DNA of 64,000 bases from an uncultured virus (IMG/VR IMGVR_UViG_3300021371_000011). Lineage: Duplodnaviria; Heunggongvirae; Uroviricota; Caudoviricetes. This document shows positions 5,686 through 64,000 of this stretch, one piece after another. Numbering within the stretch: position 1 is the first letter of the stretch; each line of letters begins with the position of its first letter. A program made the translations under genes and the position numbers. The stretch lies in IMG/VR virus record IMGVR_UViG_3300021371_000011. One strand, 5' to 3'. Below the pieces are notes generated by a model. That model did not search any database. It was not told the DNA's origin and saw only the letters and a program-made list of their open reading frames with translations.

Positions 5686-5739
5686 ACGCTTGCGATACAG
5701 AACATAAAGTATATAACCGTAGAAAAATGAGGTATTAAC
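5686..5739 (+). promoter_or_regulatory. Outlier copy of the 18-bp motif (ACGCTTGCGATACAGAAC) plus TATATAAC promoter
   Basis: 17/18 identical to the copy at 63919; TATA at 5710, ATG 30 nt later. Confidence 0.7.
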
Positions 5740-9889: not shown

Positions 9890-9891
9890 AC

Positions 9892-9921
9892 TATATAACC
9901 GTAAGAAAATGAGGTATTAAT
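9892..9921 (+). promoter_or_regulatory. Promoter TATATAACCGTAAGAAAATGAGG
   Basis: Near-identical to 5710-5739; ATG 30 nt from the TATA box. Confidence 0.7.
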
Positions 9922-15661: not shown

Positions 15662-15809
15662 AATTAATGTATGTGCGGCTTGCGGGACTAGCGAATCTTG
15701 GGTAGACCAAGATATTATGTGGAGAGTAATGGGTGAAGAGGGTGCAGACCCCGAAGAGATTACCGTAATTACTTGTAAATGTGGTAATAAACAAAAGAAA
15801 GAAGAGTGA
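15654..15809 (+). CDS. 51-aa Zn-ribbon microprotein (not in ORF track)
   Basis: MSRINVCAACG...TCKCGN; GGTGA RBS; fills the gap between genes. Confidence 0.6.
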   Translation: MSRINVCAACGTSESWVDQDIMWRVMGEEGADPEEITVITCKCGNKQKKEE

Positions 15810-15813
15810 TTTT

Positions 15814-38700: not shown

Positions 38701-41498
38701 GCAGATGTAGAATCATCTATTGTACGAAGGAATGATTGAATATCTGTTCCGTCTAAATCGCTGTCATCTATATAGATTCTAGTAGCAGATGATTGAGTAG
38801 CGTTGTTTAGTTTTACCTTACCTGCGCCGGGGTCGCTGTCTGCTGTATTTGTAGAAAAATCATATTTAAAGGATGCGCCACCAAAATTACCGTCTGCGCC
38901 TGTAGGTCCTGTCGGTCCGGTAGGACCTTGACTTCCTGTACTACCCGCCGGTCCGGTAGGCCCTGTCGGTCCGGTTGGACCCGCAGGACCTTGACTTCCT
39001 GTAGGACCTTGTGGTCCGGTAGGCCCTGTAGGTCCTGTCGGAATTGTAAAGGCAAATACTTTAGCACTATCCGGCCCACTTGTCGCTACTGCTAAAGGTC
39101 CTGTAGTTATGGTAGGTGTTCCAACACCTGCTGATGCACCCGCCGGTCCTGTAGGACCTGTAGGACCTTGACTTCCTGTTCCGCCTGTTGGCCCTGTTGG
39201 GCCTGTTGCACCCGTAGGTCCTGTAGGCCCGGTACTACCCGGTGGAATTGTGAAAGCAAATACCTTTGCTGTGTCCGGCCCACTAGAACCGATTGCTAAA
39301 GGACCACTAGATACTGTCGGTGTTCCAAAACCTGCGGCTGTTCCGGTAGGCCCTGTATTACCCGTAGTACCTTGAGGCCCTGTAGGTCCGGTTGGTCCTT
39401 GAGAACCTGTAGGTCCATTTGGTCCGGGTGGACCTGCCGCGCCTGTGCTACCTGTAGGTCCTGTAGGCCCATCCGGTCCTGTAGCACCTTGAGGTCCTGT
39501 AGGTCCATCCGGCCCATCCGGTCCTGTAGGTCCTGTATTTCCAATAGGCCCTTGACTGCCCGTTGGACCTTGAGGTCCTGTAGGTCCTGTAGGACCGGCA
39601 GGTCCGGTATCTCCTTTATCACCCGTTCTTGCGAATGTGACTAAAATATCTTCTCCCGCACTAAAAGGTGATGTAGCAGAAGAGTCTATACCACTTACTG
39701 TTATATCAAAGAAACCTGTTTGTTCACTTAGTGAAGAAATAGTAAATATTATAAATTGTGAAGCGTCTAGTAAATTACTTATCTTTACATGACCCTTTAT
39801 TGTAGAAGTAGAGTCGTCTATTGTTCTCATAAAAGATTGAATATCGCTACCGTCTAAGTCGCTATCATCAATAACAATATGCGTAGCAGCATTTTGCGTA
39901 GCACTATTTAATCTTAGTTTACCTGCGCCGGGGTCTGCTATACCATTAGCAGCATCAAAATCATACTTAAATGAAGCACCACCAAAATTACCATCCGGTC
40001 CTGTCGGACCTGTAGGTCCTGTACTACCTGTCGGACCTGCTACGCCTTGTGGACCTTGAAGGCCGGTAGGACCTTGTGGTCCTGTTGAACCTGTTGTGCC
40101 TTGTGGACCTTGTGGTCCATCCGGTCCTGTCGGGCCTTGTGAGCCTGTCGGTCCTGTCGGGCCTGTCGGTCCCGCTACTGTAGAATCTGCACCTGTAGGG
40201 CCTGTTGGACCTGTCGGGCCTGTTGGCCCGGTATTACCTTGTGGGCCTTGAGGTCCTGTACTTCCCGTAGAACCTGTAGGTCCTTGTGGACCTGTAGGGC
40301 CTGTAGGCCCTTGTGAACCTAATTGACCTGCCTGTCCAAAGTTTAAAACATATTTTGTGTTGTTTGTAAGAACGTCTGTTTGACTAGCAGTATTAGGAGA
40401 TACACCTAGTGTGTACCATCCGGTATTATCTGTGACAGTATTAACTATAAAATTAGCAAACTCTTCTACATCCCCACCTATATGTTGTATTTGTAATAAA
40501 CCCTTTCTAGTGTTATTAGATGCACTTATAAAAGTAAACCAAGCATCTTGATTTACAGCACCGGCATCTTCTTCATCTATATAGATTTCAGTAATGTTAG
40601 CAAATGTACCATTGTCAAATCTCATAAACCCCGAACCGGGGTCTGCTTCTGTTGTAGTGGTACTAAACTTCCAAACTACTCCCGATTTAAAACCTGCGGG
40701 ACCTTGAGGTCCTGTAGGACCGGAAGGAATAGTAAACGCAAAGACTTTAGCGGTATCGGGTCCACTAGCAGTTATACCTACGGGGCTACCTGTGACAATA
40801 GTAGGTGTACCAAACCCTGCCGCCGCACCTGTTGAACCTGTATTACCTTGTATTCCTTGTGGACCTTGTGGACCTGTATTACCTGTAGAACCCGTAGAGC
40901 CTGTCGGTCCCGTTGGTCCTTGTGGACCTGTCGGTCCTGTAGGACCTGTATTCCCTTGAACACCTTGAATACCTTGAATACCTTGTGGGCCTGTTGGCCC
41001 TGTAGCATTATTTTGATATGCAATCCATGTATCTTGTGTAGCACTATGCCTTACATATACTTTTTGATTTTGTGTTAAGGTAAAAGTACCACCTGTACCC
41101 GGATTAGTGACCCCTTGACCTACAAGAGAAACTACTGTACCTGCATCAGTACCAATAGTAATATTACCGCTACCTTCATTCATAATTTGTAATTCTGATA
41201 GACCTACCGGAAAAGGAACGGAAGCGTATGTAGGTAATGTGTATGTATATGTAGAAGAGTCAGTATGTATAATCATACGTGCTTCGTCTGCTCTAGTAAA
41301 TGTATAATTAGCGTTTTTTGTTTCTAGTGGCCTAACGTCTGCCGACCTACCACCTGCTGTAGAACCATCACCAATAAAAACACCATTAGCGGCTGAACCT
41401 GTATTTGTATCTAGGAATATTTGTTCTTTAGTAGGTGTGACACCCGCCCTTTGGGTAGTGGTAGCAGTAAAAAGATTTTTATTACCTGTTAGTGCCAT
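35778..41498 (-). CDS. Collagen-like virion fibre (1906 aa)
   Basis: Long Gly-X-Y (mostly GPT) tracts, 11 AK(V/I)FAFTIP modules, 3 globular repeats, C-terminal NxxxG adhesin-like repeats. Confidence 0.85.
36830..41005 (-). repeat. Coding collagen repeats and interspersed module repeats
   Basis: GGACCTGTAGGTCCTGT-like 9-nt periodicity; local rise in GC content. Confidence 0.9.
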
Positions 41499-50106: not shown

Positions 50107-51537
50107 ATGGGAAGGTATCAAGGGGGCTACGACCTCATAGAAAAATACGCCAATGATAGGACTTTTAGGAATAATTCTGACTTTGCTCGGTTTTTGCACG
50201 AAGTTGAGCCACAATGCTCGATAAACAGTTGGAGATGTAGAATACAACGGTGGGTAAAACAAGGAAATGACTTTAGGGACACTACTACTACAGAATTATC
50301 TGTAAATAAGATAAGAGTTTACTACGATAAAGCAAATGACACTTATTTAACGGTGCTAGATGCTCTAGGTGGTGAAATGGTTGCTATTGATGGTGACAAA
50401 CACAGAAATATGAAAAAAGATTATTCAGATGACGGTAATGGTTTGTCTGCAACAGATTTGGCTAGAAAATACGGAATACCTACGGGTTGGATTAAAGAAT
50501 ACATAAGAGTCAATGAATGGAATCACGGTATGGACATTTTTACCGATGAAGAAGTTATGACAAAGACTACTGATGATTTAGTAAATGAAACTCTTGCTGT
50601 TAGACGTATGCAAGTAGCAGAAAAGGTAGAAAGTAAGCGTTGGGCTGAAATAGAAAAAGATGCTAACGCATATAGGGCTTTTAGTGATACAATTCTTAAT
50701 GAGTTTCTTACTTTAATCCCAAAAGTAAAAACAAGTACGAAAAACAGAATCAAGATGACGGAAAACGGTAATTATGCTGTAGTCATTTCTCCTACTGACT
50801 TACATTATGGTAAATATGGTTGGAAAGATGAGGTTGGCGAAGAATATGACCTTGACGAAGCACGTTCAAGACTTATTGACCGCACAAACAATTTAATTTC
50901 AAGATTACCTAGTAGACCCGAAAAAGTTATTGTAACTGCGGGTTCTGATTGGTTTCATGTTGATAACGATGCAGGTACTACTACAAAAGGAACGGCACAA
51001 GATATGGCGGCTACACCTGCACAAATACTTATGGGTGGTTGTGAGTTAGCAAGAGAGCATATAGAAATGCTTCGTGCTGTTTCTCCTGTACAAGTAGTAT
51101 TTATGTGTGGTAATCACGATAGACACAGTAATTTTGCTTTGATGATGTATTTATCTGCACTTTATGAAAATGCAGACGATGTAGAAGTAATTGTTAGTCC
51201 GTACCCTCGACAGTATATAAAATACGGAAACTCTTTGTTAGGTTTTACTCACGGTGATGGAGTTAGGGGTAATGACTTACCTGCACTTATGGCTACAGAA
51301 GAAAGACAGGCTTGGGGAGAAAGAGAACACCATTATTGGTTTCACGGACACCTACACCACATGAGATTAACAGAAAAGGCAGGATGTACGGTAATTCAAT
51401 TACCTAGTCTAGCCGGACACGATAGATACCACGCTAGAAAAGGATATGTACTTGCTAGAGCAGGTATTTGCGCCCATATTGTAGATAAGGAATTAGGATT
51501 AGTAGGTAATCTGTTTTCTCCGGTGGTGCATGAGTAA
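50107..51537 (+). CDS. Calcineurin-like metallophosphoesterase with N-terminal HTH regions
   Basis: DLHYG, GSDWFH, GNHD, HGD, GHLH; LSATDLARKYGIP HTH. Confidence 0.85.
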   Translation: MGRYQGGYDLIEKYANDRTFRNNSDFARFLHEVEPQCSINSWRCRIQRWVKQGNDFRDTTTTELSVNKIRVYYDKANDTYLTVLDALGGEMVAIDGDKHRNMKKDYSDDGNGLSATDLARKYGIPTGWIKEYIRVNEWNHGMDIFTDEEVMTKTTDDLVNETLAVRRMQVAEKVESKRWAEIEKDANAYRAFSDTILNEFLTLIPKVKTSTKNRIKMTENGNYAVVISPTDLHYGKYGWKDEVGEEYDLDEARSRLIDRTNNLISRLPSRPEKVIVTAGSDWFHVDNDAGTTTKGTAQDMAATPAQILMGGCELAREHIEMLRAVSPVQVVFMCGNHDRHSNFALMMYLSALYENADDVEVIVSPYPRQYIKYGNSLLGFTHGDGVRGNDLPALMATEERQAWGEREHHYWFHGHLHHMRLTEKAGCTVIQLPSLAGHDRYHARKGYVLARAGICAHIVDKELGLVGNLFSPVVHE

Positions 51538-53451: not shown

Positions 53452-53628
53452 AAAAATATTTTTCAAAAAAATTATAAAAAATCGTAAGCGGTGGTTGGCG
53501 GTGTAATACGGCGACCTATGTATGCCTTTTGGAAGAGTAAAAGGTGCGTTTTTGGCTCAAAATCGCACTTTTTTGAGTGTGAACACTACATCGAACATAC
53601 TATGTAGTTTCACTACATAGTGTTAAGC

Positions 53629-54804
53629 ATGGATGAACTAGTGTTTCACCAAATAGGACGCATAGAAAATGAATGCCCTCTTGGAGTTAAAGACTCCTTA
53701 GAGGATAGGGTAGACTCGGAGTCTAAGACCCTTATAGAGATAGTAAAAACTCTCGGAATTACCACAAAGAAAGGTGAACATTTCAAGAGATATTCTTCAA
53801 TGATTAAGAAACTAAAAGAAGTCGGCTTCCCTATCATAGATTTACCAAACAAAGATATTACTAAAATGAATCTTCAATTAAAGATTTTACCAAGTAAATC
53901 GAATGCTATCGTATCATCATATAAATCGGATGAACTAGGTAGAAGTGTAGACCCTTCAAACAAGAATGTTAAGAGATACTCAAAGCAAGATTTCACAACC
54001 CAACCGAGAAAGATTTGTTCATGTCATTTCAATGATAAATACCGAGAAGATAAATCAGCGACAGCACCGATTTGCTATGCTATCTTAGAGAGTAATACTA
54101 ACCCCAATGAAATCAAACATATTGGAGTAGGTTCAAAGTGTCGTGGTCATGTCTTAAATCACTTCGATTATTACTCATTAGAAACTTATTACACAAGTGC
54201 AATTCTTGAAGATTATTGGAAGAGTATTTTACTCCCGACATTAGACTTCAATAAGTACAATGATTTCACTATGAAGAGAGCATCTAAATTGAACCTAAGA
54301 TTCAATCAAGATGATTCACCATTCAAAGAGCCATTCTACTCAAACAACCAAGATAACCGACACTTAGAACATCCACTAAATGAGAATGAAAAAGGTGTTT
54401 GTATTGACTGTAATTCCCAAGGTTTTCAATGCCTAACAAAACAGAAAAAGAACGGTCATAAAGAAGTGTTCGGAGAAATGCAAGTTAACACCCTTGATTA
54501 TTGGGGTTGGCAATCAGAGACTTTTGATATGGTTGGTCTTGAACAATCATGGAATCAACCAAAGTATTTGATGAATCTCGATACTAAAGAAATTAAGTCC
54601 GTTGAAGAATGGGGTCTTGATGGTTTCAGATGCCGACCCGTTTGGAGATATACAATTGCTTGCTTCTTAGGTAGAGAAAATCAAATTGGCTTCGGTTGGG
54701 TTAAGTTTCAACCAACAGACAGACTAATGAATGCACTAAATAAAATCAATAATGTATCTACTACAAATCTACTGTTTGAGGATATAGACGGGGGGTACTA
54801 TTAG
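53629..54804 (+). CDS. Hypothetical protein with Cys motifs
   Basis: Long ORF with CSC, CYA, GSKC and CIDC motifs. Confidence 0.7.
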   Translation: MDELVFHQIGRIENECPLGVKDSLEDRVDSESKTLIEIVKTLGITTKKGEHFKRYSSMIKKLKEVGFPIIDLPNKDITKMNLQLKILPSKSNAIVSSYKSDELGRSVDPSNKNVKRYSKQDFTTQPRKICSCHFNDKYREDKSATAPICYAILESNTNPNEIKHIGVGSKCRGHVLNHFDYYSLETYYTSAILEDYWKSILLPTLDFNKYNDFTMKRASKLNLRFNQDDSPFKEPFYSNNQDNRHLEHPLNENEKGVCIDCNSQGFQCLTKQKKNGHKEVFGEMQVNTLDYWGWQSETFDMVGLEQSWNQPKYLMNLDTKEIKSVEEWGLDGFRCRPVWRYTIACFLGRENQIGFGWVKFQPTDRLMNALNKINNVSTTNLLFEDIDGGYY

Positions 54805-54982: not shown

Positions 54983-55278
54983 GTTTAGAAAATGGAGATA
55001 TAATCGTAGTGAAATGGATGATAAAAACGTCAAAGAAAAAAATATGGACTTCCGTATTTACTGACTTTGATGATTACTTAGATTTCATTGATTCGGGAAA
55101 TAAAATAATAATAACACAAGACCGAAAAAATAATGTTTTTGGTGCATGGCTAAAAAGACTTCAAACAGAAGAAGAAAAGACAAATGATGATTTTGAATTA
55201 ATGGATTATTTAGAAGAGATAGAAACTATTGAGGATGAAAGAATGAACGCGAAAAAGTCGAGAAAGGGGGTGATATGA
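54979..55278 (+). CDS. Hypothetical protein
   Basis: GGTGA RBS before ATG 54979. Confidence 0.6.
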   Translation: MSLENGDIIVVKWMIKTSKKKIWTSVFTDFDDYLDFIDSGNKIIITQDRKNNVFGAWLKRLQTEEEKTNDDFELMDYLEEIETIEDERMNAKKSRKGVI

Positions 55279-55279
55279 A

Positions 55280-55597
55280 ATGACTATAACTAAGAAAACT
55301 GAATTAGATTTTAAAGAAGCAACACTAAAATATAGATGCAAGAAAACAGGAAAAATTGAAATCAGAACAGCAAATCTACAAGAGTGGTTTGAAGATGAAG
55401 AGTTTGATTTAATTGGGTTTGAAACTGAAGAAATGAGTAATCTAAAATATAAATTAGAACATTTAATTTGCGGTTTGTTTGATGCTGACAGAGAATTGAA
55501 TAAAACAATTAATGCTTTGAAACCTAATCTTGAATACCAAAGAAAAATTATAAGAGATAATTTATTAGATATTGACACTAAATCTAAATCACTTTGA
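55280..55597 (+). CDS. Hypothetical protein
   Basis: GGGGTGA RBS. Confidence 0.6.
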   Translation: MTITKKTELDFKEATLKYRCKKTGKIEIRTANLQEWFEDEEFDLIGFETEEMSNLKYKLEHLICGLFDADRELNKTINALKPNLEYQRKIIRDNLLDIDTKSKSL

Positions 55598-55628
55598 TTA
55601 GATTTAATATTAATCGGATTTACAAAAA

Positions 55629-55703
55629 ACTTCTAGGGATATATTCCTAGAAGTCGAAATTAATTAGGTCGGCCACCGAATATCGGTGGTCGGCCTTTTT
55701 TTT
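55629..55703 (+). terminator. Two hairpins plus T-tract
   Basis: ACTTCTAGG..CCTAGAAGT, then AGGTCGGCCACCGA-ATA-TCGGTGGTCGGCCT-T7. Confidence 0.7.
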
Positions 55704-55976
55704 ATTTTTACAAAAGTCAACCCTACAAAATATAACCCTACATTTTTATTTCTAGGCGTTAACCCTACAAAATATAACCCTACAAAATAAAAACCCTACA
55801 AAATATGACCCTACAAAATATAACCCTACAAAACATAGTCCTACAAAAGTCTGAAAGAATCTGAAAAATAAAAATGTTTTCAAAAATTAAGAATCCAAAC
55901 CCTACAAAAGAATCCAAACCCTACAAAAAAAAGGTAAGGTAGGGGTCTAGTGTCCCCCTACCCTACAAAAGTTTTT

Positions 55977-56270
55977 TTATATTATTTGTATATCAGTATA
56001 TGTGTCGCTTGATTTTTTTACGGTGTATGTTTTTTTACTAACTTTTCCATCTGGGTTAAATATTGTTATTTCGCCTTTGCCGTATTTTTTCATTCCGTGT
56101 ATAGACATATTTACAGTACCATTTTCGTGTTCATATATATTAAAACGAACACCACCTACCGTAATGTAATGAAGGGCTGATTTCTCGCCCTCTCTAGGAA
56201 CTAATTCAATACTATGAATCTCCTCTAATCGCAGTCTAGTGCCAGCCTCTAGGTCAATCTCCTTTACCAT
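55977..56270 (-). CDS. Hypothetical protein embedded in the repeat field
   Basis: Motif-free 97-aa ORF; CTATAAGC about 29 nt upstream. Confidence 0.6.
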   Translation of the reverse strand: MVKEIDLEAGTRLRLEEIHSIELVPREGEKSALHYITVGGVRFNIYEHENGTVNMSIHGMKKYGKGEITIFNPDGKVSKKTYTVKKSSDTYTDIQII

Positions 56271-57089
56271 GTTTTAGTCTAATTACATTTTGCTTATAGT
56301 ATTATCTATAATCAATCTCTTTATTTTGTAGGGTTATTTTTTATTGTGTGATTATTTCTCCCTACAAAATATTATGTATCTTTTTTTATTATGCCCCTCT
56401 AAGTAGGGGGGTTTCAGCCCAAAAAAAACAAACCCTACAAAATAATAATAAGTGTAGTTTTTACACTAAGTGTTGTGAATAACACCGAATAACCCTACAA
56501 AATAAGTTTTTTCGTAAAAAAAACCCTACAAAATAAGGAGATTCATAATAATAGTCTTTATATAGGTAAACAGCATCTCATTACGGATAAGTGGTTTTGC
56601 GAAATTGTTTTGTAGGGTCGAAATAACATGGCCGGATTTGACATAGAGTCTAGCGGATAAAAAATAAACCCTACAAAATAAAAAAAACGCTGTACTGCGG
56701 CGGTGCAAAAAGTAAACCTGAGATTTTTTACCTACAAAATAAAACCTACAAAAGATTTTCCTACATTTTCTTAGCCATGATTATTTTGTAGGGTTTCCAA
56801 GAGTGAAAAAAATATTTTGTAGGTTGAAAAAGTGCAGTTAGTGTAAAATCTACACCGAGTGTCAAAAAACTCACCAAGTGAGAAAGACACACTAAGTTAT
56901 TTTGTAGGGTATTACTATTGAGAAAAAACTAAAATCCTACAAAATATTAAATACTAAGATTATTTTTTGGGTAAAACAAAACCCTACAAAAGACAGGCTA
57001 TAAGCGACCGAAAAACACTAAATATAACCCTACAAAATAAGGAGAATGAGAATAGAAACGCTTATATAGGGGAACTAATATTGTATATT

Positions 57090-57668
57090 ATGACTAAAAT
57101 TAAGAAAGCGTGCAGATATAAGAAATGTAAAGGGGTTATCCATCGAGGTAAATGCCCCGTCGCCTCAAGTCGAGGTTCAAAAGGTGGCAGCACTACCGGA
57201 AAATCAAAAGCGAGAACGGGTTCAAATAATGGCCGATTTACAGGACTTCGAGAATGTGGATGTCCTAAGCGTCAACATTTACCTTCATGTATTCATTCTC
57301 AATTGACATTACAAAAAGTCAAAATTATTAATGCACATGATTTCAATTATAATTCAAATCTACCACTAGAAAATTATCAGCAAATCATTCAATCTAAGTT
57401 TCCAAAATCTCAACCGAAAGTTAGAATTGCCCGAAAAGAAAATATTCCACTCAAGAGAACTGTCGCCAAATGGGAATTAGAAAATGCCGTCAAGGTAAAA
57501 TCAATTCCACATTATTCATTCTTAAAATATACAGGCGTGTGTGCCTCATGTGGGTGCGTGCGTGATGTGCATGATGCACATATGATACACGTAGATGATA
57601 TAAAATACAAATTACCCGAAGAACATTATTTCAAGGCTCGGATTGTTTGCCACGCTTGCGAAGCATAA
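57090..57668 (+). CDS. Basic Cys/His-rich protein
   Basis: ATG 57090 lies 29 nt after CTTATATA; several Cys/His clusters and a GSKGG motif. Confidence 0.65.
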   Translation: MTKIKKACRYKKCKGVIHRGKCPVASSRGSKGGSTTGKSKARTGSNNGRFTGLRECGCPKRQHLPSCIHSQLTLQKVKIINAHDFNYNSNLPLENYQQIIQSKFPKSQPKVRIARKENIPLKRTVAKWELENAVKVKSIPHYSFLKYTGVCASCGCVRDVHDAHMIHVDDIKYKLPEEHYFKARIVCHACEA

Positions 57669-57796
57669 TCGGAGACTATAAATAGTATTAAAGATAGGTG
57701 AAAACATGGACAAAAGAGGCGTAAATAATAGAGGCACTACTCAAAGAATCGTGAATATGCTTCTCGATGATTCTAAAAATTACGGGAGAAAAAGAT

Positions 57797-58018
57797 ATGA
57801 AAATTAATTATGAAAAATATTGCTATAAGATTGATAGTAATTACGGCCTTCATTATAATAATTCTTATTATAATGTTGGTGGTGATGGTAAAGTTTCACA
57901 ATGTAAAATAATAATTGTTGATGACGGTTATGGAATCATCAAACCATTTTCATTTACTTTTGAAATATCTGAGCCTACATTTTGTAGGGTTGGAAATGAC
58001 GCTTGCGAAGCACAATGA
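57797..58018 (+). CDS. Hypothetical protein ending in the motif
   Basis: GGGAG RBS before MKINYEK; C-terminal DACEAQ is encoded by the motif. Confidence 0.5.
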   Translation: MKINYEKYCYKIDSNYGLHYNNSYYNVGGDGKVSQCKIIIVDDGYGIIKPFSFTFEISEPTFCRVGNDACEAQ

Positions 58019-58160
58019 GAGACTTTAAATAAGATTGACGATAAGATTAAATTGTAAGAAAAACAACGGAGACAAAAAATATGTATGAAGATAGCGAATG
58101 GCTAAAAGAGATGATTAAAAAGACGAATGCGGGAATGATTTATTTGGCGGGGTCTGAGAG

Positions 58161-58280
58161 ATGAAAGATTTACGCCCGACACTTCAAAACCGAAAAGATT
58201 TGAGAAAGTCAAATCCGCCCTTGACCCTTTGGGCAAGGCAGCAAATTGACAAACTCGGTTTTAATGCCGAGCAATTCTGA
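58161..58280 (+). CDS. 39-aa microprotein
   Basis: ATGA-coupled to the 27-aa ORF 58081-58164, downstream of promoter unit 57999. Confidence 0.4.
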   Translation: MKDLRPTLQNRKDLRKSNPPLTLWARQQIDKLGFNAEQF

Positions 58281-58934
58281 GCCTACATTTTGTAGGGTTA
58301 GAAATCCCACTCCCGCCCGTTGAGCGTTGATTTCGGGCTGCATCCTAAGCATGATGTGAGATTGCGAATAACCTATTGACGAGTAGGCGAAAACTTTCGG
58401 AAACTGCTTACATTTAACGAAAAAGAAAAAAAGATTTACGCAAAAAAGAAAAGAAAGCCTTCCGGCATTAGGTTCGGAAGAGGACTTTCTTTTAAGGTCA
58501 AAATACCTTTCGGGGTGCATCCATTTCGGGTGCATCCCACTTTTTTTATTTTTATAGCCTATATTTTGTAGGGTTAAAGATTCATTTTTTTTTATTTCAG
58601 ATTCAAATATTTTGTAGGGTACTTACTTCTTCCGCAAAAATAATTTTGTAGGGTCGCCCTTTTTTTCTACACCCATACACCCTACAAAATAATTAAGCCT
58701 GTCTTTTGTAGGTTAATTACATTTACAGTAAAACTAAAAATCCTACAAAAGATTTCAAATCCAAAAACTAAAACCCTACAAAATAAAACCGTAAAAGAAA
58801 AAAATAAACTCAAAAATAAACCCTACAAAATATAGGCTAAAGAGAAAAAATAAAACTCAAAAATAAACCCTACAAAATAACGCTTGTGTAGCAAAATAGT
58901 AGCCTTTTTATAGTAGTAGTTTTTAGTAGTGAAC

Positions 58935-59393
58935 ATGATGTTTGGAGAACACGATAGACAGATAATTAGTATAGAGAGAGAAAAGTTTAGAGAAATTAAA
59001 AAGGGAGATATTTTTTTCATGGGTCAAGATAAAGTTAGAGTTTTGGCAAAAGTAAATAAAGTTTCTTGGCGTTATGAAAATGGTAGAGAGTTTTATTGGT
59101 TTAGTATGAAATATATAGCAAGAAAAGATTTAGAAACAGGCGAAGTTAAAAGATGGAATGAAGAGGAATCTCTTAGGAAAAACGGAAAAGAAAGAAAAAA
59201 TATTGATAATACCAAATATGGTTTTCTTTTAAGTTATTCTTGTAATCAAGAAGAAGGTACTCAAAGACATTTACCGCTTCGTTCTTGGGGGTTCTCAATT
59301 TCACCCGAAAACTTTGAACACCATTCAATTTTCATGGAATCACCCGATACAGATTTTAATTTAGATTTCTACTACGCTTGCGTAGCAGAATGA
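58935..59393 (+). CDS. Hypothetical early protein
   Basis: ATG 30 nt from TATA 58905. Confidence 0.7.
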   Translation: MMFGEHDRQIISIEREKFREIKKGDIFFMGQDKVRVLAKVNKVSWRYENGREFYWFSMKYIARKDLETGEVKRWNEEESLRKNGKERKNIDNTKYGFLLSYSCNQEEGTQRHLPLRSWGFSISPENFEHHSIFMESPDTDFNLDFYYACVAE

Positions 59394-59428
59394 TAACAGT
59401 TAAATAGAATGAAAAAGGAGAATTAAAT

Positions 59429-59626
59429 ATGAGCCAAAACACAAAAGAGATATATGGGGTATGGAATATCCATGACTTAGAGAAGCAAATAAAAAGATTT
59501 AAGAAAAATGAGAGAGAAAATCTAGGCGTAAAAAGACTTAGTAGAAATGCTAATGTCGTAATAGATTTTACTAGTGTTGAAGATTCATCCGGTGATTCCC
59601 AATTATCAATTAAGGAGATGTACTAA
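59429..59626 (+). CDS. Hypothetical early protein
   Basis: ATG 30 nt from TATA 59399. Confidence 0.65.
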   Translation: MSQNTKEIYGVWNIHDLEKQIKRFKKNERENLGVKRLSRNANVVIDFTSVEDSSGDSQLSIKEMY

Positions 59627-59854
59627 ATGACATACAACGGTTGGACAAATAGAGAAACATGGCTTATTAATTTACATTTTGAGCCGAAAAATCAAGGAGA
59701 TATTGAATGGTTAAGATTACAATTAGAAACAGCATTTCGCAAAATGACTGTTGACCATTTTTACGGTAATTTTTTCAATGATTTAATTAATTTCCAATTA
59801 ATCAATTGGGATGAATTAGCAAATCACGTTCAAGAAAATTACGAAGAAGAGTAA
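59627..59854 (+). CDS. Hypothetical protein (YNGWTNRETW type, common in viruses)
   Basis: N-terminal motif; GGAG RBS. Confidence 0.7.
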   Translation: MTYNGWTNRETWLINLHFEPKNQGDIEWLRLQLETAFRKMTVDHFYGNFFNDLINFQLINWDELANHVQENYEEE

Positions 59855-59909
59855 GACGCTTGCGAAGCAGAATGACAAGGCTTATATAGTAGCACTTATA
59901 TGTATATAT

Positions 59910-60290
59910 ATGAGCAAAGAGGTGATTAGAATGAATGATATAAAACTTTTAATGAAAAAAGAAACGGTAGATGGGACTTATAAAAAAGATGGAACGAGGA
60001 TAAATAGAGAAGTAGGCTATGCAGTAGGCTTAGTCAAAGGTGATGGATTTACTACTTTTAACGTAAATGAAATTATGACTAAGTTTTTGGCTACAAGAGT
60101 AAATTATCCAAATGCTGAATATATAGGTATATGGACTAGAAAAAACGGCCAAATGGTTTTTGACCCAATTGCTATTTATGAAAATATTAAAGATGCTTTC
60201 AAAGTAGCGACAAGAAATCGTCAAGATGCAATTTGGGATTTCAAAGAAGGCAAAGAAATAACGCTTGCGAAGCAGAATGAGAAGGTTTAA
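59910..60290 (+). CDS. Hypothetical early protein
   Basis: ATG 29 nt from TATA 59881; IGIW..QDAIWD. Confidence 0.7.
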   Translation: MSKEVIRMNDIKLLMKKETVDGTYKKDGTRINREVGYAVGLVKGDGFTTFNVNEIMTKFLATRVNYPNAEYIGIWTRKNGQMVFDPIAIYENIKDAFKVATRNRQDAIWDFKEGKEITLAKQNEKV

Positions 60291-60327
60291 GTACTAGGGC
60301 TTATATGAATATACAGGAGATAAAAAC

Positions 60328-60801
60328 ATGACGACAGGAATATGGATTAGAGATAAAACTTTAGATAAAAACGTAGTATCAGCAGAAGGTTGCGTAGAAG
60401 ATATTACAGACGTAAAAATAAGATTTAAGATTTTTCAGCATCAAGATTGGTGGCTTGATAAATATGACGGGTTTAATTTAGGAGATGACTTTTATTTATG
60501 GCTTGAGAATCTTGCTGATAATACAAATATTCACATCCCCCGCAATAGATACGATAGTACTTATTATATAGGTATCTATGAGAATGAAAAAGTTAGAATT
60601 AGGATAAAAACAAATAGAAATATAGAGAGAGATTCAGATTCACATTGGTTAAAAAAGTGGGGCGGAAAATTACAAAAACCCCTCGGTACACCAACAGTTT
60701 CAACGCTTATGAAGCAGAATAACGTATATCCAATAAATATGAAGCCAAGTGGCATCACGATAAAGAAGGAAACGCTTGCGAAGCAGAATCAACAGGTTTA
60801 A
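60328..60801 (+). CDS. Hypothetical early protein
   Basis: Downstream of unit 60261; GGAG RBS. Confidence 0.65.
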   Translation: MTTGIWIRDKTLDKNVVSAEGCVEDITDVKIRFKIFQHQDWWLDKYDGFNLGDDFYLWLENLADNTNIHIPRNRYDSTYYIGIYENEKVRIRIKTNRNIERDSDSHWLKKWGGKLQKPLGTPTVSTLMKQNNVYPINMKPSGITIKKETLAKQNQQV

Positions 60802-60825
60802 ATAGTAGGGCGGAGATGGATATAT

Positions 60826-60933
60826 ATGAGCAAATACACACCGATGATAGATGATAGACATATAACAGAGTGGAATGAATTAATGAAAAAAGTGGTAGAG
60901 AAAGTTAAAGACGCTTGCGAAGCAGAATCGTAA
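60826..60933 (+). CDS. 35-aa microprotein between two motif copies
   Basis: ATG 29 nt from TATA 60797; ends DACEAES. Confidence 0.5.
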   Translation: MSKYTPMIDDRHITEWNELMKKVVEKVKDACEAES

Positions 60934-61067
60934 GACTTAAATAGTAGGGCTAATATGAATATATATAAGTAAAAAGGTGATTAAATGGAAGAAGAAGATT
61001 ATATGACTAAAGAATGGATATTAAGAAAGTGGAAAGCAACAAGAATTATTAAGGGGGATGGAGAAGA

Positions 61068-61346
61068 ATGACAAAGACACCGATAGAAGCATTACAAGAT
61101 TTTGATTTTACAGTCAATACTCATAAAGATGCTACGACAATAAAGTATGACCCGAATGCACCTTTAATTAGGGCTAAAACTAATTATGCTAAAGATAAGT
61201 ATAATGAATCTAGTAAAAAAGAAAAACAACGCTTGCGAAGCAGAATCGTAAGCCTTAAAAGGAATGACGAATTAGTTAGTTTTGTGGGAGAAGTAATACC
61301 CACACCAATAAAAGAAAAAAAAGGAGATAAAAAAAATGAAATATGA
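61068..61346 (+). CDS. Hypothetical protein reading through motif 61229
   Basis: Coupled to the 28-aa ORF 60985-61071. Confidence 0.5.
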   Translation: MTKTPIEALQDFDFTVNTHKDATTIKYDPNAPLIRAKTNYAKDKYNESSKKEKQRLRSRIVSLKRNDELVSFVGEVIPTPIKEKKGDKKNEI

Positions 61347-61530
61347 AATAGGAATGAAAGTAAGTTTCGGGCGACCGAATGGAGAAAAGACTGAGGGTAT
61401 TATCATAAAGATAAACCCTAAAAGCCTCAAGGTGCGAACCTTAGAGAGTCGTGGTAGAACGGGTAGGTCTGTTCAAGGGACTGTCTGGAAAGTACCGAGA
61501 GATGAAAGATACGCGAAGGTGATACAATGA
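61336..61530 (+). CDS. Small SH3/KOW-like beta-barrel protein
   Basis: IGMKVSF..EGIIIKINPKSLKV..WKVP. Confidence 0.6.
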   Translation: MKYEIGMKVSFGRPNGEKTEGIIIKINPKSLKVRTLESRGRTGRSVQGTVWKVPRDERYAKVIQ

Positions 61531-62516
61531 GTATGAGAAATATGTTAGGGGCTTATGCCCGATTTGGAAAAGAAGCACAAGGAACGACTGTGAAAGAGGT
61601 ATTGCAGAATGCAAATGCCGATTTCAATATTGGTATGGAATCTGTCTATACTAAAGATGGAAAGGTTATACCTAACCAATTTAGGACATTTAGAGAAGAT
61701 ACCGATGAGACTTTTGGTGTCGTAAAAGGCACATACAAAGTTATGCAAAATGAAAGATTGTTAAATATATCTGACGATTTGGTAAAGAGAGAAAAAGTAA
61801 TTTGGGATAGAATTGGACTTGTAGATAACGGTAGAAAAATCGTAGCATCTTTTAAGATGCCCGAAGGTTTCTCTATCGGTGGAATGGATGATGTAGACCA
61901 ATATATCATGCTTCAAAATACTAATGACGGTTCGGGTGGAATCCGTATTTTACCCTCAAATGTAAGAATTGCTTGCAGTAATCAATTTACATATATGCAA
62001 AGTCTATTGAATAAAATGGGTATCAATAAAAATGCTCTAACTATCAGACATTCAGCACGTCAAGAAGATAGGATTGCACAATTGGTAGAGGCTCTAAAAA
62101 TTGTAGACCATCTCAATCAGACATTCATGGAAACAGCGACAGAATTAATCAATGTTGAAATGTCTCAAGATGACAGAATTAATTTCTACATAGATACTTT
62201 AGGGCTAAAACAAAATGAAGATATGATGAAGGGCGGCAAAGATTATGATGCTAACAACCCTTACGGATTAGGCACTAGAGGTCAAAATACTCTAACCACT
62301 TTGTTAGACTTAGAAAAATCAGATACGAATACTATCAACGGTATGGAAAATAGTGCTTGGGCTGCTTTCAATGTGGCTACGGAGTACATAGACCACGCAT
62401 GGAGTCATAGCAAAGACGGCAAATCTAGCGATAGCAAAGTAGAATCAGCAATCGTAGGTGCGGGTGCAAGAATGAAGTCAAACGCATGGGAGACTATCAC
62501 GGAGATGTACGCCTAA
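61527..62516 (+). CDS. DUF932-family protein
   Basis: FGVV..YKVMQN, NDGSG, RIACSNQ, IRHS, AWAAFNVATEYIDH. Confidence 0.85.
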   Translation: MSMRNMLGAYARFGKEAQGTTVKEVLQNANADFNIGMESVYTKDGKVIPNQFRTFREDTDETFGVVKGTYKVMQNERLLNISDDLVKREKVIWDRIGLVDNGRKIVASFKMPEGFSIGGMDDVDQYIMLQNTNDGSGGIRILPSNVRIACSNQFTYMQSLLNKMGINKNALTIRHSARQEDRIAQLVEALKIVDHLNQTFMETATELINVEMSQDDRINFYIDTLGLKQNEDMMKGGKDYDANNPYGLGTRGQNTLTTLLDLEKSDTNTINGMENSAWAAFNVATEYIDHAWSHSKDGKSSDSKVESAIVGAGARMKSNAWETITEMYA

Positions 62517-62530
62517 GATTTATCGTAAAA

Positions 62531-62573
62531 GTAAGTAGGGGGTTAGTACCCTCTACTTACGCCTTCGGGCGTA
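62531..62573 (+). terminator. Hairpins after the DUF932 gene
   Basis: GTAAGTAGGGGG..CCCTCTACTTAC and ACGCC-TTCG-GGCGT. Confidence 0.55.
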
Positions 62574-62648
62574 GCCTATCTTTTGTAGGGTTTACGCTTG
62601 CGAGGCAGAATGAATAGATTTAAGTAAAAAGAAAAAGGAGTGAGATAT

Positions 62649-63062
62649 ATGACAAGAGCGAGACACGGCAGACACGGAGAAATATGCAAGAGACAAAACG
62701 GAAGAATAATGATGACTGTAAGACCGACACCATCGATTTTAGATGATACAGATATAGCCATGCTTATCGGTTATATTACTAATGTAGGTAGGCCGGATTA
62801 TTATAGTGAAGAAGTTATATCCAAATCTGATGCTAAACAGGCAATACACGATTGGGAATATAATACAGGTAGTATTACACCTTTGACAAAGAAAATGGTT
62901 ATGATGTATCTAAGAAGTAATTATTACTTAGGACAAATTGAAGAACAAACCGATTTGATTGATACCTATGATGAAGATTGTGGGGTATGTCAAGCATTGT
63001 TAGAAAGAGTACATGAGATATTCCCTTCTTTTGTGGTAAAAGAAACTGAGGTGGTCGCATGA
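62649..63062 (+). CDS. Hypothetical early protein
   Basis: ATG 30 nt from TATA 62619. Confidence 0.65.
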   Translation: MTRARHGRHGEICKRQNGRIMMTVRPTPSILDDTDIAMLIGYITNVGRPDYYSEEVISKSDAKQAIHDWEYNTGSITPLTKKMVMMYLRSNYYLGQIEEQTDLIDTYDEDCGVCQALLERVHEIFPSFVVKETEVVA

Positions 63063-63307
63063 GTAATCCTTACGTTTCTCCTATGGCCGCAAATCAGTTT
63101 AGGATATATCATGGTGATACGATAACATTTCAATCATACAATTCAATAGTATGCACCAAAATTGAAGATAGAGTAATTTTACATGAGCCATATTGGGATA
63201 TGTATTCGGCAACCACTAACAAATATTTACTAAGATTCTTAGAAGATGATTCAATTAATACTATTAGGGCAAAAGTAAAGTCGGGAGAATATGAGGTGAT
63301 TGCATGA
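63059..63307 (+). CDS. Hypothetical protein
   Basis: GAGGTGG RBS; FQSYNS..YSATT.KY motif. Confidence 0.65.
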   Translation: MSNPYVSPMAANQFRIYHGDTITFQSYNSIVCTKIEDRVILHEPYWDMYSATTNKYLLRFLEDDSINTIRAKVKSGEYEVIA

Positions 63308-63441
63308 GTTCATATGACGGATATAAAAAAGTTCTCAAGGATTTGCATAACCATTCACCCGAAACAAAGGCTTTAGTAGATAAATATATGAAGATTCATC
63401 TTGATGCGTTTCTTAATGATAAAGAGAGTAGTGAGTTTTAA
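63304..63441 (+). CDS. 45-aa microprotein (not in ORF track)
   Basis: GAGGTGA RBS; coupled to neighbours at both ends. Confidence 0.55.
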   Translation: MSSYDGYKKVLKDLHNHSPETKALVDKYMKIHLDAFLNDKESSEF

Positions 63442-63977
63442 TGAATCTAAATATTATTAGAAATCAAGTTTACAATTGGATAAACGAATCTGATACAGAT
63501 TTTAATTTACATTTCGGAGAAAACAAACTTTACTTGGTTGTAGAATGGATTGACGGTAAATCACTTTTTATGGAAGATTATTTTGATTTTAATATAAAGG
63601 GCAGAATGGCTTTTATGAATGAATTGATTATGACTTATTGTGATTTAGATGAAGATACTGATGAGGTAAAAGTAATTTGGTTTAACAAATTATTCGGAAT
63701 CGGTAGTGAGTATCATGGAATCGCTGATGACGCTTTAGAACACAAAGAGGGCTTCACACCAATAGGTGTCTATGATGTTGAAGGTGTAGGTCTATGTACG
63801 GGTGTATCATTTGCAGAAAGACAGACCGCTTCTTTCACAGGAAAACCGCCTGTATTCTATGAATGGACATACATTTGCGACACTTGCACTTACGAAGAAG
63901 ATGAATGTAAATGTGATGACGCTTGCGATACAGAATCGGCAGACTTAAATAAGATGGAAAAGGAGAGAGATATATGA
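63441..63977 (+). CDS. Acidic hypothetical protein
   Basis: TAATG coupling; reads through motif 63919. Confidence 0.6.
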   Translation: MNLNIIRNQVYNWINESDTDFNLHFGENKLYLVVEWIDGKSLFMEDYFDFNIKGRMAFMNELIMTYCDLDEDTDEVKVIWFNKLFGIGSEYHGIADDALEHKEGFTPIGVYDVEGVGLCTGVSFAERQTASFTGKPPVFYEWTYICDTCTYEEDECKCDDACDTESADLNKMEKERDI

Positions 63978-64000
63978 GTAAAAGAGAAGAAGAGATGGTA

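What the first reader, a model, noticed from the sequence alone, without database searches (positions are those of the whole stretch)
57652..63977. The motif overwrites ORF ends in all three frames: a gene-cassette shuffling signature
Seen: upstream ORFs run into the motif and stop in or after it. Frame 1 gives HACEA* (57668), DACEAQ* (58018), YACVAE* (59393), DACEAES* (60933) and DACDTES.. (63977). Frame 2 gives TLAKQNEKV* (60290) and TLAKQNQQV* (60801). Frame 3 gives RLRSRI (61229). Conservation is therefore at DNA level, and many genes have no stop before the unit. Units also share post-TATA sequence (TAGTAGGGC..ATATGAATATA-like), and a decayed copy at 60703 lies 69 bp before an intact one. 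Inference: the units are recombination junctions for gain, loss and reordering of small host-takeover or anti-defence genes, an integron-like array with no integrase seen in this window.
Basis: partly seen in the sequence, partly recalled or inferred. Interest (0 to 1): 0.8.

Follow-up and report, generated by a model that had tools for sequence, protein, structure and literature searches.

The report
Repeated promoter units shuffle viral genes
A 55-base promoter unit repeated before many small early genes of an uncultured marine virus, probably one infecting archaea, also ends the gene upstream of it and is one of the places where related viruses have lost or swapped genes.

Summary
The 18-mer ACGCTTGCGAAGCAGAAT (up to 3 mismatches) occurs 13 times, all on the + strand, 12 of them in 57652-63936 (expected 0.05). 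The ORFs stop there because each unit carries stops in all three frames within 36 nt.

The unit is a promoter cassette: the 18-mer, 7 nt, a TTTAAATA box, then an ATG at +54/55 in 49 of 78 units across eight genomes. Gene content points to a magrovirus-like archaeal virus. I read the box as an archaeal TATA box and the 18-mer as an upstream element.

Six close relatives (75-94% backbone identity) differ strongly in gene content here. Of 39 breakpoint clusters, 16 lie in units (13.9% expected). Three deletions left chimeric units. However, 8 clusters lie at unit-less start codons, 15 lie elsewhere, and motif-poor early DNA is almost as plastic.

The recombination inference is therefore partly right and the integron analogy is wrong. 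I found no integrase and no attC-like fold, and each cassette has its own promoter. The closest known cases are the T4-type PeSL cassettes and the halovirus HF2 intergenic-repeat promoters.

The parts
57652..57685 (+). Unit P1: 18-mer (1 mismatch) plus a TATA-like box. The ATG of a 33-aa ORF lies at 57706. The upstream 192/233-aa ORF ends inside the unit at 57668.
57999..58032 (+). Unit P2. The upstream ORF ends at 58018. The slot just upstream (57797-57996) holds different sequences in W, A/D, B/C and E; F has W's gene with a diverged last ~22 nt.
58880..58913 (+). Unit P3, a position-specific variant (..TTGTGTAGCA..) conserved in all lineages. It is the left partner of the chimeric units in relatives A and C/G.
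58935..59393 (+). Cassette gene between P3 and P4 (152 aa). Present in B, D and F. Absent from A and C/G, where one chimeric P3/P4 unit remains, and absent from E.
59374..59407 (+). Unit P4, with the ATG at 59429 (+55). It is the right partner of the chimeric unit in A.
59856..59889 (+). Unit P5, an exact copy. The upstream DUF7249 gene (59627-59854) stops 2 nt before it. The DUF7249 homologue sits before P2 in B and C/G.
60261..60294 (+). Unit P6, an exact copy. The upstream ORF ends at 60290 inside the TATA-like box.
60703..60720 (+). Decayed 18-mer (2 mismatches) with no TATA-like box. It is a breakpoint against A, B, D and E.
60721..60771 (+). 51-nt filler between the decayed and intact copies, read as extra C-terminal residues of the 157-aa ORF. 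No source was found in any held locus.
60772..60805 (+). Unit P7, an exact copy, with the ATG at 60826 (+54). The upstream ORF ends at 60801.
60911..60944 (+). Unit P8, an exact copy. The upstream 35-aa ORF ends at 60933.
61229..61262 (+). Unit P9, an exact 18-mer with a weak box (CCTTAAAAGG). It lies inside ORF 61068-61346. The next ATG is at 61336 (+107).
62557..62627 (+). Terminator-like hairpin (62557-62574) with a T-run in the TTTTGTAGGG motif, followed directly by unit P10 (62594). The ATG is at 62649 (+55).
63919..63977 (+). Unit P11 (2 mismatches). The upstream 178-aa ORF reads through the whole unit and stops at 63977, overlapping the next ATG at 63974.
5686..5719 (+). Outlying unit (3 mismatches) in the replication gene cluster. 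Its box and leader resemble those before 9922 and 12206.

Best explanation
The motif is the upstream half of a roughly 55-nt promoter cassette. The cassette is repeated in direct orientation before the small early genes of an uncultured marine tailed virus.

Anatomy (shown): an 18-nt conserved element, a 7-nt purine-rich spacer, a TTTAAATA or CTTAAATA box, about 20 nt that usually hold GGAG, then the ATG at +54/55.

How transcription works (inferred). The replication genes are of the archaeal kind and the virus looks like a group C magrovirus. I therefore read the box as an archaeal TATA box. It starts 28-29 nt before the ATG, so transcripts would begin at or a few nt before the start codon. 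The spacer would be a weak BRE (the TFB recognition element just upstream of an archaeal TATA box). The 18-mer, at -55 to -38, would be a binding site for a host or viral transcription factor that marks one regulon. I put about 2:1 odds on this over a bacterial reading with -35 TTGCGA, a 17-nt spacer and -10 TAAATA.

Why ORFs end in it (shown). The genome is packed, and the unit holds stops in all three frames within 36 nt. Any ORF that abuts a unit therefore borrows its last 5-10 codons and its stop from the unit.

Recombination (partly shown, partly inferred). Ten or more near-identical units lie head to tail within 6 kb. They act as short portable homology. Exchange between two units deletes the cassette between them and leaves a chimeric unit; I saw this three times. 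Exchange between a unit and a second point swaps cassettes or gene 3' ends between co-infecting relatives. This is a side effect of general recombination, slippage or annealing at 8-18 nt of identity. It is not site-specific machinery, and it is only one of several routes of gene turnover in this region.
For: Promoter cassette:
- All 13 copies are on the coding strand.
- Information content is near 2 bits for positions 1-7, 9, 13-14 and 17 of the 18-mer, and high for the box at +26 to +33. The flanks are near zero. This used 73 unique units from 8 genomes.
- The first ORF-opening ATG is at +54/55 in 49 of 78 units. That includes 10 of 10 in relative H, whose TerL is 77% identical in protein and whose early genes are mostly unrelated.
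- A TATA-like 7-mer starts at offset 26 in 48 of 78 units.
- The 21 W ORFs in the region fall into 21 different families, so the repeats are not left over from gene duplication.
- Position-specific variants of the 18-mer (P1, P3, P10) are kept in all lineages.

General promoter geometry:
- In 72 window genes without the 18-mer, TATA-like hexamers pile up at -30 to -28 from the start codon. There are 12 hits there against 0-3 at any other offset.

Archaeal context:
- PolB matches halovirus polymerases best among phage records. In the PDB it matches archaeal family-B polymerases at about 1e-27, against 4e-12 for RB69.
- There is an RFC small-subunit hit at 2.9e-43 and a Hef nuclease hit. RFC has its best E-values to haloviruses.
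- An AEP/PriX-like lead exists for 15781-16827.
- A bacterial-type GroEL sits in the replication cluster and an exonuclease sits beside the packaging genes. Passages of PMC5434244 describe both for group C magroviruses.
- In halovirus HF2 the TATA box begins at -26 from mapped start sites, and a conserved upstream 'alpha' motif exists (PMC8707807, passages and sections 3.1 and 3.7).

Stops.

Recombination:
- In W, 16 of 39 breakpoint clusters lie in units (13.9% expected, p=3e-5). Eleven lie in the core from -8 to +36 (8.4% expected, p=3e-4).
- Chimeric units: A11028 has a P3 left half and a P4 right half. C4479 has a P3 left half and the other P4 type seen in F. The second arrangement is also present in an independent assembly, G. 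F7213 joins the end of the 122-aa gene (59922-60290) to a P7-type right half, and the 157-aa gene (60328-60801) is lost.
- One downstream unit type is joined to as many as 5 different upstream sequences.
- Homologues of the 60328-60801 gene end as ..TVSLEKLFN* in A and D..TVSTLAKQN..* in B and E, and a 30-residue extension in W.
- The identity at the junctions (8-18 nt) is shorter than assembler k-mers, so repeat collapse during assembly cannot explain them.
Against: - No transcript 5' ends or reporter data are available. All runs that hold the region are kept as contigs.
- The tool's sigma-70 scan calls none of the units. That argues against the bacterial reading but does not prove the archaeal one.
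- GGAG lies between the box and the ATG. In the archaeal reading it would not be in the unit's own transcript, and would serve only read-through transcripts. That is awkward.
- Pfam did not find MCM, primase, PCNA or RadA in the window. No magrovirus record was available to compare. The portal protein has no match in the phage collection.
- 23 of 39 breakpoint clusters lie outside units. Eight of them sit at start codons with no unit (4.6% expected, p=4e-4), so gene boundaries in general are favoured.
- Motif-sparse early DNA has 2.7-2.9 breakpoint clusters per kb against 3.4-3.8 in the motif-dense part.
- The seven lineages share ancestry, so clusters are not independent events.
- Alignment ends are good only to about 10 nt.
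- All relatives are metagenome assemblies.
Confidence: 0.7

Rival explanations
1. A bacteriophage early promoter of the sigma-70 kind. TTGCGA inside the 18-mer is the -35, 17 nt follow, and TAAATA is the -10. Transcripts start about 15 nt before the ATG and carry the GGAG as a Shine-Dalgarno site. Recombination at the repeats works as in the best explanation.
For: The geometry fits. The spacer is 17 nt, GGAG lies 7-13 nt before the ATG in most units, and the ATG is at +54/55. GroEL is of the bacterial type. One PolB relative sits in a MAG labelled Legionellales.
Against: TAAATA lacks the T at the last position of the -10, and shifting by one base loses the A at position 2. The tool's sigma-70 scan therefore calls none of the units, and it finds fewer sites in the region than in shuffles (27 against 38). 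The promoters without the 18-mer keep the box at -30 to -28 but show no TTG 17 nt upstream. PolB, RFC, the Hef nuclease and the primase lead point to an archaeal-type replisome.
Confidence: 0.25
2. A dedicated cassette-exchange system, integron-like. The 18-mer would be the site of a specific recombinase or nuclease that excises and inserts promoter-ORF cassettes.
For: Cassette content varies, and many junctions sit exactly at the 5' edge of the 18-mer: 57996, 59374, 59855, 60772, 61229 and 63914. The same cassette was lost twice between the same pair of units.
Against: No integrase, transposase or site-specific recombinase appears in 68 window ORFs or in 30 ORFs of relative D that cover the part missing from the window. 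The 18-mer has no conserved inverted repeat or shared fold; z-scores run from -2.0 to +1.4, and its right arm varies without compensation. Junctions are as enriched at start codons without a unit. The unit has a simpler role as a promoter.
Confidence: 0.05
3. The units are promoters only. Breakpoints map to them merely because they are the only conserved letters between variable genes, and because selection keeps only recombinants with intact genes. No exchange happens within the units.
For: Unit-less start codons are equally enriched (8 of 39 against 4.6% expected). Motif-sparse early DNA is nearly as plastic. Position-specific variants of the 18-mer persist, so copies are not homogenised.
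Against: Three chimeric units each span exactly one repeat period. The left half comes from one copy and the right half from the next. That requires a crossover inside the 18-mer. One of these arrangements is present in two independent assemblies, C and G.
Confidence: 0.15

Closest known systems
PeSL (promoter-early stem-loop) cassettes of T4-type phages (Arbiol et al. 2010, PMC2839356: abstract and sections 13 and 16 read; Comeau et al. 2014, PMC4122927: abstract read)
   Same: Both are repeated early-promoter units running from the upstream gene's end to the Shine-Dalgarno site and ATG of the next gene. Both are concentrated in a hyperplastic region of small ORFans. In both, indels and replacements are bounded by the units, and a deletion leaves a single chimeric unit. 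That is the ORFan192 case in RB49/phi1, matched here by the 58935-59393 gene.
   Different: The virus lineage differs: this one has PolB, RFC and Hef of the archaeal kind and is not a T4-like myovirus. The promoter is not a sigma-70 consensus. No stem-loop belongs to the unit; only about 2 units have a hairpin just upstream. In PeSLs the stops of upstream genes lie before the -35 element, whereas here they lie inside the promoter. Mini-circles were not tested.
Class I intergenic repeats of halovirus HF2 (Russ, Pfeiffer and Dyall-Smith 2021, PMC8707807: abstract, sections 3.1 and 3.7, and passages read)
   Same: Both occur in a tailed archaeal-type virus. Both are repeats of about 58 bp with a conserved upstream motif ('alpha'), then BRE, TATA box and start region. 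[quoted passage not shown] The HF2 TATA box begins at -26 from mapped start sites, which fits the spacing to the ATG here.
   Different: HF2 has 7 class I repeats spread over the genome, and they are intergenic. Here 12 units lie within 6.3 kb and 8 of them overlap the end of the upstream ORF. The sequences are unrelated. In the parts I read, the HF2 paper does not link the repeats to gene shuffling. Promoter activity was measured there but not here.
Integron cassette arrays (features recalled from general knowledge, not from a call)
   Same: Both are a one-directional row of small, variable genes separated by a repeated site, with gene content differing between close relatives.
   Different: No IntI-type integrase was found. 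There is no attC-like imperfect palindrome. Each cassette has its own promoter and start codon, rather than being promoterless behind one common promoter (Pc). Junctions are not confined to the repeat.

Membership tests
Integron | A tyrosine-recombinase integrase (IntI) next to the array | tested here: not met
   Pfam scans of 68 window ORFs and of 30 ORFs of relative D covering the ~7 kb missing from the window found no integrase or recombinase family.
Integron | attC sites: imperfect inverted repeats that fold as hairpins | tested here: not met
   Twelve units folded with flanks gave z-scores from -2.0 to +1.4 and no shared structure. The GCTT..AAGC arms are not kept by compensating changes.
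Integron | Promoterless cassettes read from one common promoter | tested here: not met
   Every unit carries its own TATA-like box, and 49 of 78 have an ATG at +54/55.
PeSL cassettes (T4-type) | A repeated promoter matching the host's early-promoter consensus (sigma-70) | tested here: not met
   None of the 27 sigma-70-like sites in 55000-64000 is a unit, because the second hexamer lacks the final T. The units are promoter-like, but of a TATA-box kind.
PeSL cassettes (T4-type) | A stem-loop terminator or attenuator as part of the unit | tested here: not met
   No shared fold was found. Terminator-like hairpins precede only P10 (62557-62574) and lie in the non-coding stretch at 58512-58538.
PeSL cassettes (T4-type) | Concentration in a hyperplastic region, mostly before ORFans | tested here: met
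   12 of 13 copies lie in 6.3 kb. Of the 19 genes counted in 57090-63977, only 2 match any family. Gene presence varies in 6 relatives.
PeSL cassettes (T4-type) | Indels bounded by units, with one chimeric unit left after deletion | tested here: met
   Chimeric units A11028, C4479 (also in G) and F7213. 16 of 39 breakpoint clusters lie in units.
PeSL cassettes (T4-type) | Excised mini-circles carrying one unit and one cassette | not testable with these tools
   All runs holding the region are kept as contigs.
HF2-type intergenic-repeat promoters | A repeat of about 58 bp holding an upstream conserved motif, BRE, TATA box and start region | tested here: met
   By sequence only: an 18-mer, a 7-nt purine-rich spacer, an 8-nt box, and an ATG 28-29 nt after the start of the box.
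HF2-type intergenic-repeat promoters | Measured promoter activity and mapped start sites | not testable with these tools
   No raw RNA reads were available.
HF2-type intergenic-repeat promoters | Intergenic position | tested here: not met
   Long upstream ORFs run into 8 of 12 units.
Magrovirus (group C) as the kind of virus | Tailed-virus structural module plus an archaeal-type replisome (PolB, RFC, clamp, AEP primase, MCM, RadA), GroEL, an exonuclease beside the structural genes, and no ligase | tested here: inconclusive
   Found: portal, TerL, tail tube and tape measure; PolB, RFC, Hef, GroEL and an exonuclease at 50107-51537; a primase lead; no ligase. Not found by Pfam: MCM, clamp, RadA. 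No magrovirus sequence was available for direct comparison. Features were taken from passages of PMC5434244.

The most novel reading that the evidence does not exclude
The units form a true cassette-exchange scaffold in an abundant group of uncultured archaeal viruses. Any ORF dropped between two units is at once given a promoter, a start context and, from the next unit, a stop in whichever frame it arrives. Cassettes then move as unit-bounded pieces, possibly as circles like the PeSL mini-circles, within and between co-infecting viruses. The 18-mer would serve both as the mark of an early regulon and as the exchange point. This would be the first promoter-mediated gene-shuffling system described for archaeal viruses.
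Probability: 0.2. Interest if true: 0.7.

Novelty: new variant of a known kind. Interest (0 to 1): 0.45.

Why it matters
Magrovirus-like viruses are abundant in surface oceans but have never been cultured. In two searches of the held library I found no paper that pairs 'magrovirus' with 'promoter' (0 papers; none of the 10 papers listed holds 'magrovirus').

A sharply defined 55-nt unit, together with the general rule of a box at -30 to -23 from the start codon, gives three things:
- A way to call early genes and true start codons in these genomes.
- A concrete DNA site with which to look for the host or viral factor that reads it.
- A natural record of how accessory genes are gained and lost.

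It also extends the PeSL idea, in which repeated promoters double as recombination handles, beyond T4-like phages. At the same time it shows the limits of that idea, because most junctions here do not need the repeat.

Tried and rejected
- Whole-genome search: none is held for this window.
- blastn of 57000-64000 against the phage collection gave no match. The portal protein gave no match there either.
- Exact 18-mer scan of genome contigs: 51 loci, all with a single exact match, about half of them one conserved Microcoleus locus. The two loci with extra approximate copies (L057, L061) and L003 showed no similarity to the window. I took these as chance matches that say nothing about the host.
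- Origin of the 51-nt filler at 60721-60771: no match of 17 nt or more in any held locus or elsewhere in the window.
- Stem-loop in the units: none is shared.
- A viral TFB or other regulator that could read the 18-mer: the only hit was a faint TFIIB_C_2 match (E 0.0078, below cut-off) in a 66-aa ORF of relative D. That ORF is absent from B and C, which still carry the motif. Rejected.
- PDB sequence searches for 15781-16827, 53620-54804 and 50107-51537 gave no hits.
- Contigs of four public runs laid on the region: 4 of 12 joint ends fall in unit cores (57649, 59400, 60801, 63913), and three loose ends abut or contain a motif copy (60772, 62614, 63045). The sides are only 30-47 nt and likeness was set at 88. 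The tool warns that such joints often come from other organisms. I use them only as a weak hint. The loose ends at 59633/59671 reflect a widely conserved DUF7249 N-terminus, not junctions.
- A look for diverged units in the more distant relative L017 was uninformative.
- A loose regex for diverged units in the window was badly designed and found nothing useful.

Full report
1. THE OBSERVATION

The 18-mer ACGCTTGCGAAGCAGAAT, allowing 3 mismatches, occurs 13 times in the window, always on the + strand. Twelve copies lie between 57652 and 63936 and one lies at 5686. Shuffled sequence gives 0.05 on average.

These are HACEA* at 57668, DACEAQ* at 58018, YACVAE* at 59393, DACEAES* at 60933 and DACDTES.. 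running to 63977. They also include TLAKQNEKV* at 60290, TLAKQNQQV* at 60801, and RLRSRI read through at 61229.

Long ORFs enter 8 of the 12 clustered units, in all three frames. The copy at 60703 is decayed (2 mismatches, no box behind it) and lies 69 nt before the intact copy at 60772.

The stops need no special explanation. In nearly every copy, frame 0 meets TAA at +29, frame 1 meets a stop at +33, and frame 2 meets TGA or TAA at +19 or +22. Any ORF that runs into a unit ends within it.

2. WHAT THE UNIT IS

Aligned, the copies show a fixed layout:
- the 18-mer;
- 7 variable, purine-rich bases;
- a TTTAAATA or CTTAAATA box at +26 to +33;
- about 20 bases that usually hold GGAG;
- an ATG.

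I examined 78 units in eight genomes. The first ORF-opening ATG lies at +54 or +55 in 49 of them, and a TATA-like 7-mer starts at offset 26 in 48.

In relative H the large terminase is 77% identical in protein and most early genes are unrelated. All 10 of its units still keep the 18-mer (0-3 mismatches), and the ATG is at +54/55.

The 21 ORFs of the window's region fall into 21 different families. The repeat is therefore kept for its own sake and is not a trace of gene duplication. The units share no RNA or DNA fold.

All this points to an expression signal placed before genes, that is, a promoter cassette.

3. WHICH KIND OF PROMOTER

The window is a tailed virus. It has a portal, large terminase, tail tube and tape measure on the - strand, and replication and small genes on the + strand.

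Its replication genes are of the archaeal kind:
- PolB matches halovirus polymerases best among phage records.
- In the PDB, PolB matches archaeal family-B enzymes at about 1e-27. Pol alpha scores 1e-20, RB69 scores 4e-12 and E. coli Pol II scores 1.5e-12.
- There is an RFC small-subunit hit at 2.9e-43 and a Hef-type nuclease hit. The RFC's best E-values in the phage collection are to haloviruses.
- The 348-aa protein at 15781-16827 resembles clusters carrying PriX and primase domains. This is a lead only.

A bacterial-type GroEL sits in the replication cluster. A phosphoesterase-type exonuclease sits next to the packaging genes. No ligase was seen.

Passages of Philosof et al. 2017 (PMC5434244) describe just this combination for group C magroviruses, the presumed viruses of Marine Group II archaea. 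Their genomes are 65-100 kb. Relatives show that the window's genome continues for about 6.9 kb from position 64000 to position 1, which gives about 71 kb.

I could not compare directly with a magrovirus record, and Pfam did not find MCM, a clamp or RadA. I hold this identity as likely, not shown.

In that light the box is a textbook archaeal TATA box. A test that does not depend on the 18-mer supports this. Among 72 window genes that lack the 18-mer, TATA-like hexamers pile up at -30 to -28 from the start codon. There are 12 hits there against 0-3 at any other offset (examples). In halovirus HF2 the TATA box begins at -26 from mapped start sites (PMC8707807). Applied here, transcripts would start 2-3 nt before the ATG.

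The 18-mer then lies at -55 to -38, upstream of the BRE position. This resembles the conserved 'alpha' motif of the HF2 class I repeats, which the HF2 authors suspect binds regulators.

The bacterial reading (-35 TTGCGA, 17 nt, -10 TAAATA, a 15-nt leader with GGAG) also fits the spacing. But the -10 lacks its final T, and the tool's sigma-70 scan calls none of the units. The awkward point for the archaeal reading is that GGAG would lie upstream of the unit's own start site and would serve only read-through transcripts. I put the odds at about 2:1 for the archaeal reading.

4. DO THE UNITS MARK RECOMBINATION JUNCTIONS?

Scanning public contigs for the exact 18-mer gave six close relatives that carry arrays of it:
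- A = L001
- B = L006
- C = L009, with G = L040 as the same arrangement from another assembly
- D = L020, from a 71.8-kb contig
- E = L032
- F = L033
There is also the distant relative H = L008. Backbone identity to the window is 75-94%.

Gene content differs sharply. Of 19 window genes in 57090-63977:
- 57797-58018 is found only in F.
- 58935-59393 is found in B, D and F, but not in A, C or E.
- 59429-59626 has no counterpart in place in any relative; B has only a weak hit (39%) elsewhere.
- 60985-61071 and 63304-63441 are found in none of the relatives.
- 59922-60290 is absent from B and C.
- 60328-60801 is absent from C and F.
- 61336-61530 is absent from B and D.
- 63059-63307 is absent from D and E.

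The DUF7249 gene (59627-59854) has its homologue before P2 in B and C (51-54% identity) rather than before P5. In H the homologues of 62649-63062 and of the DUF932 gene (61527-62516) stand in the opposite order, each right behind a unit.

For breakpoints I chained blastn matches between all pairs of lineages. I took every gap of 40 nt or more, and clustered ends that lay within 12 nt of each other. In the window (57552-64000) there are 39 clusters:
- 11 lie in the unit core from -8 to +36 (8.4% of the region; p=3e-4).
- 16 lie in the whole unit through the ATG (13.9%; p=3e-5).
- 8 lie at start codons that have no unit (4.6%; p=4e-4).
- 15 lie elsewhere.
The other six lineages give the same picture, but they share history and are not independent.

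Typically homology resumes exactly at the 5' edge of the 18-mer: 57996, 59374, 59855, 60772, 61229 and 63914. It ends just after a start codon.

Three cases need a crossover inside the 18-mer:
- In A, one unit has the P3-specific left half (..TTGTGT..) and the P4-specific right half. The 450 nt between them in D are gone.
- In C, and independently assembled in G, the same left half is joined to the other P4 type, seen in F.
- In F, the end of the 59922-60290 gene is joined through an 18-mer to the P7-type right half seen in E, and the 60328-60801 gene is gone.

The identity available at these junctions is 8-18 nt. That is shorter than assembler k-mers, so repeat collapse during assembly does not explain them.

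One downstream unit type is found behind as many as five different upstream sequences.

Homologues of the 60328-60801 gene end in their own ..LEKLFN* in A and D. In B and E they end in unit-encoded ..TLAKQN..*. In the window they read through the decayed copy, a 51-nt filler of unknown origin and the intact copy.

5. LIMITS OF THE RECOMBINATION READING

- Most clusters (23 of 39) are outside units, and unit-less gene starts are as enriched as units.
- In B, C, D and E the early region continues for about 7 kb with only 2-3 units. It still shows 2.7-2.9 breakpoint clusters per kb. The motif-dense part shows 3.4-3.8 and the backbone shows 0.7-0.9.
- Position-specific variants of the 18-mer persist in all lineages, so exchange is not frequent enough to homogenise the copies.
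- Contigs from four public runs laid on the region gave 4 of 12 joint ends in unit cores, and some loose ends at units. The flanks are short, so I treat this as a weak hint only.

6. COMPARISON WITH KNOWN SYSTEMS

It is not an integron. There is no integrase in 68 window ORFs or in 30 ORFs of D. There is no attC-like fold. Each cassette has its own promoter.

It works like the PeSL cassettes of T4-type phages (PMC2839356, abstract and sections 13 and 16; PMC4122927, abstract). Those are repeated early promoters in hyperplastic regions, with indels bounded by them and chimeric units left after deletion. It fails two PeSL features, the sigma-70 consensus and the stem-loop, and it is in another virus lineage.

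In build it is closest to the class I intergenic repeats of halovirus HF2 (PMC8707807). Those are proven promoters with an upstream conserved motif. But they are intergenic, few and dispersed, and in the parts I read they are not linked to shuffling.

7. VERDICT

The finding is real. It is best read as a repeated promoter cassette, probably of an archaeal virus. The cassette also supplies stops for upstream genes and serves as one of several recombination handles.

This is a new variant of a known kind. Interest is moderate. The promoter rule and the 18-mer regulon appear to be undescribed for magroviruses in the library I searched. The shuffling principle itself is already known.

Noticed in passing
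window 55721-58877 and 62581: A second repeat, TTTTGTAGGG, occurs 38 times with up to 1 mismatch (6.5 expected), and 37 of the copies lie in 55721-62590. There is a 15-nt periodic run on the - strand at 55763-55848. Mixed copies lie at 56324-57037. Five + copies are followed by five - copies around 58564-58877, in a 600-nt non-coding stretch with T-runs and a hairpin at 58512-58538. This may be a replication origin or an operator field. The + copies just after gene ends (57980, 58288, 62581) supply T-runs that could act as archaeal terminators.
   Followed up: partly
window 5704-5745, 9885-9921, 12170-12205: A second promoter-and-leader type (..TATATAACCGTA(A)G.. then GAGGT.. then ATG) precedes replication genes at about 5740, 9922 and 12206. 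Only the first also has the 18-mer (5686). This suggests a separate, perhaps middle, class of promoters.
   Followed up: no
whole window: The gene set fits a group C magrovirus-like archaeal virus of about 71 kb. It includes archaeal-like PolB, RFC, a Hef nuclease, bacterial-type GroEL, an exonuclease beside TerL, a 2OG-Fe(II) oxygenase and no ligase. Relatives place about 6.9 kb between window end and window start.
   Followed up: partly
window 35778-41498 (- strand): A 1906-aa protein has collagen triple-helix repeats (Pfam 7.5e-69). It lies in a stretch of 49-51% G+C inside a genome of about 36% G+C.
   Followed up: no
window 59633-59671: The first ~38 nt of the DUF7249 gene match many otherwise unrelated contigs in three public runs (loose ends on both sides). 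This is a very widely conserved N-terminal motif (..GWTNRETW..).
   Followed up: no
L032 4126-4275 (relative E) against window 60826-61228: In E the start of the 35-aa gene (MSKY..) is fused in frame to the C-terminal part of the 92-aa gene. The junction has a few shared bases (..AAATAC.. and ..AAGTATGAC..). This deletion used microhomology inside ORFs, not a unit.
   Followed up: partly
window 11700-12056: A small HNH endonuclease gene (PHROG 8.8e-8) lies directly before the PolB gene.
   Followed up: no
L032 3676 (relative E): The unit before the 157-aa gene homologue carries the spacer of the P7 type (caacagg) but the leader of the P6 type. It is a mosaic within one unit that could reflect a short conversion tract between units.
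   Followed up: no
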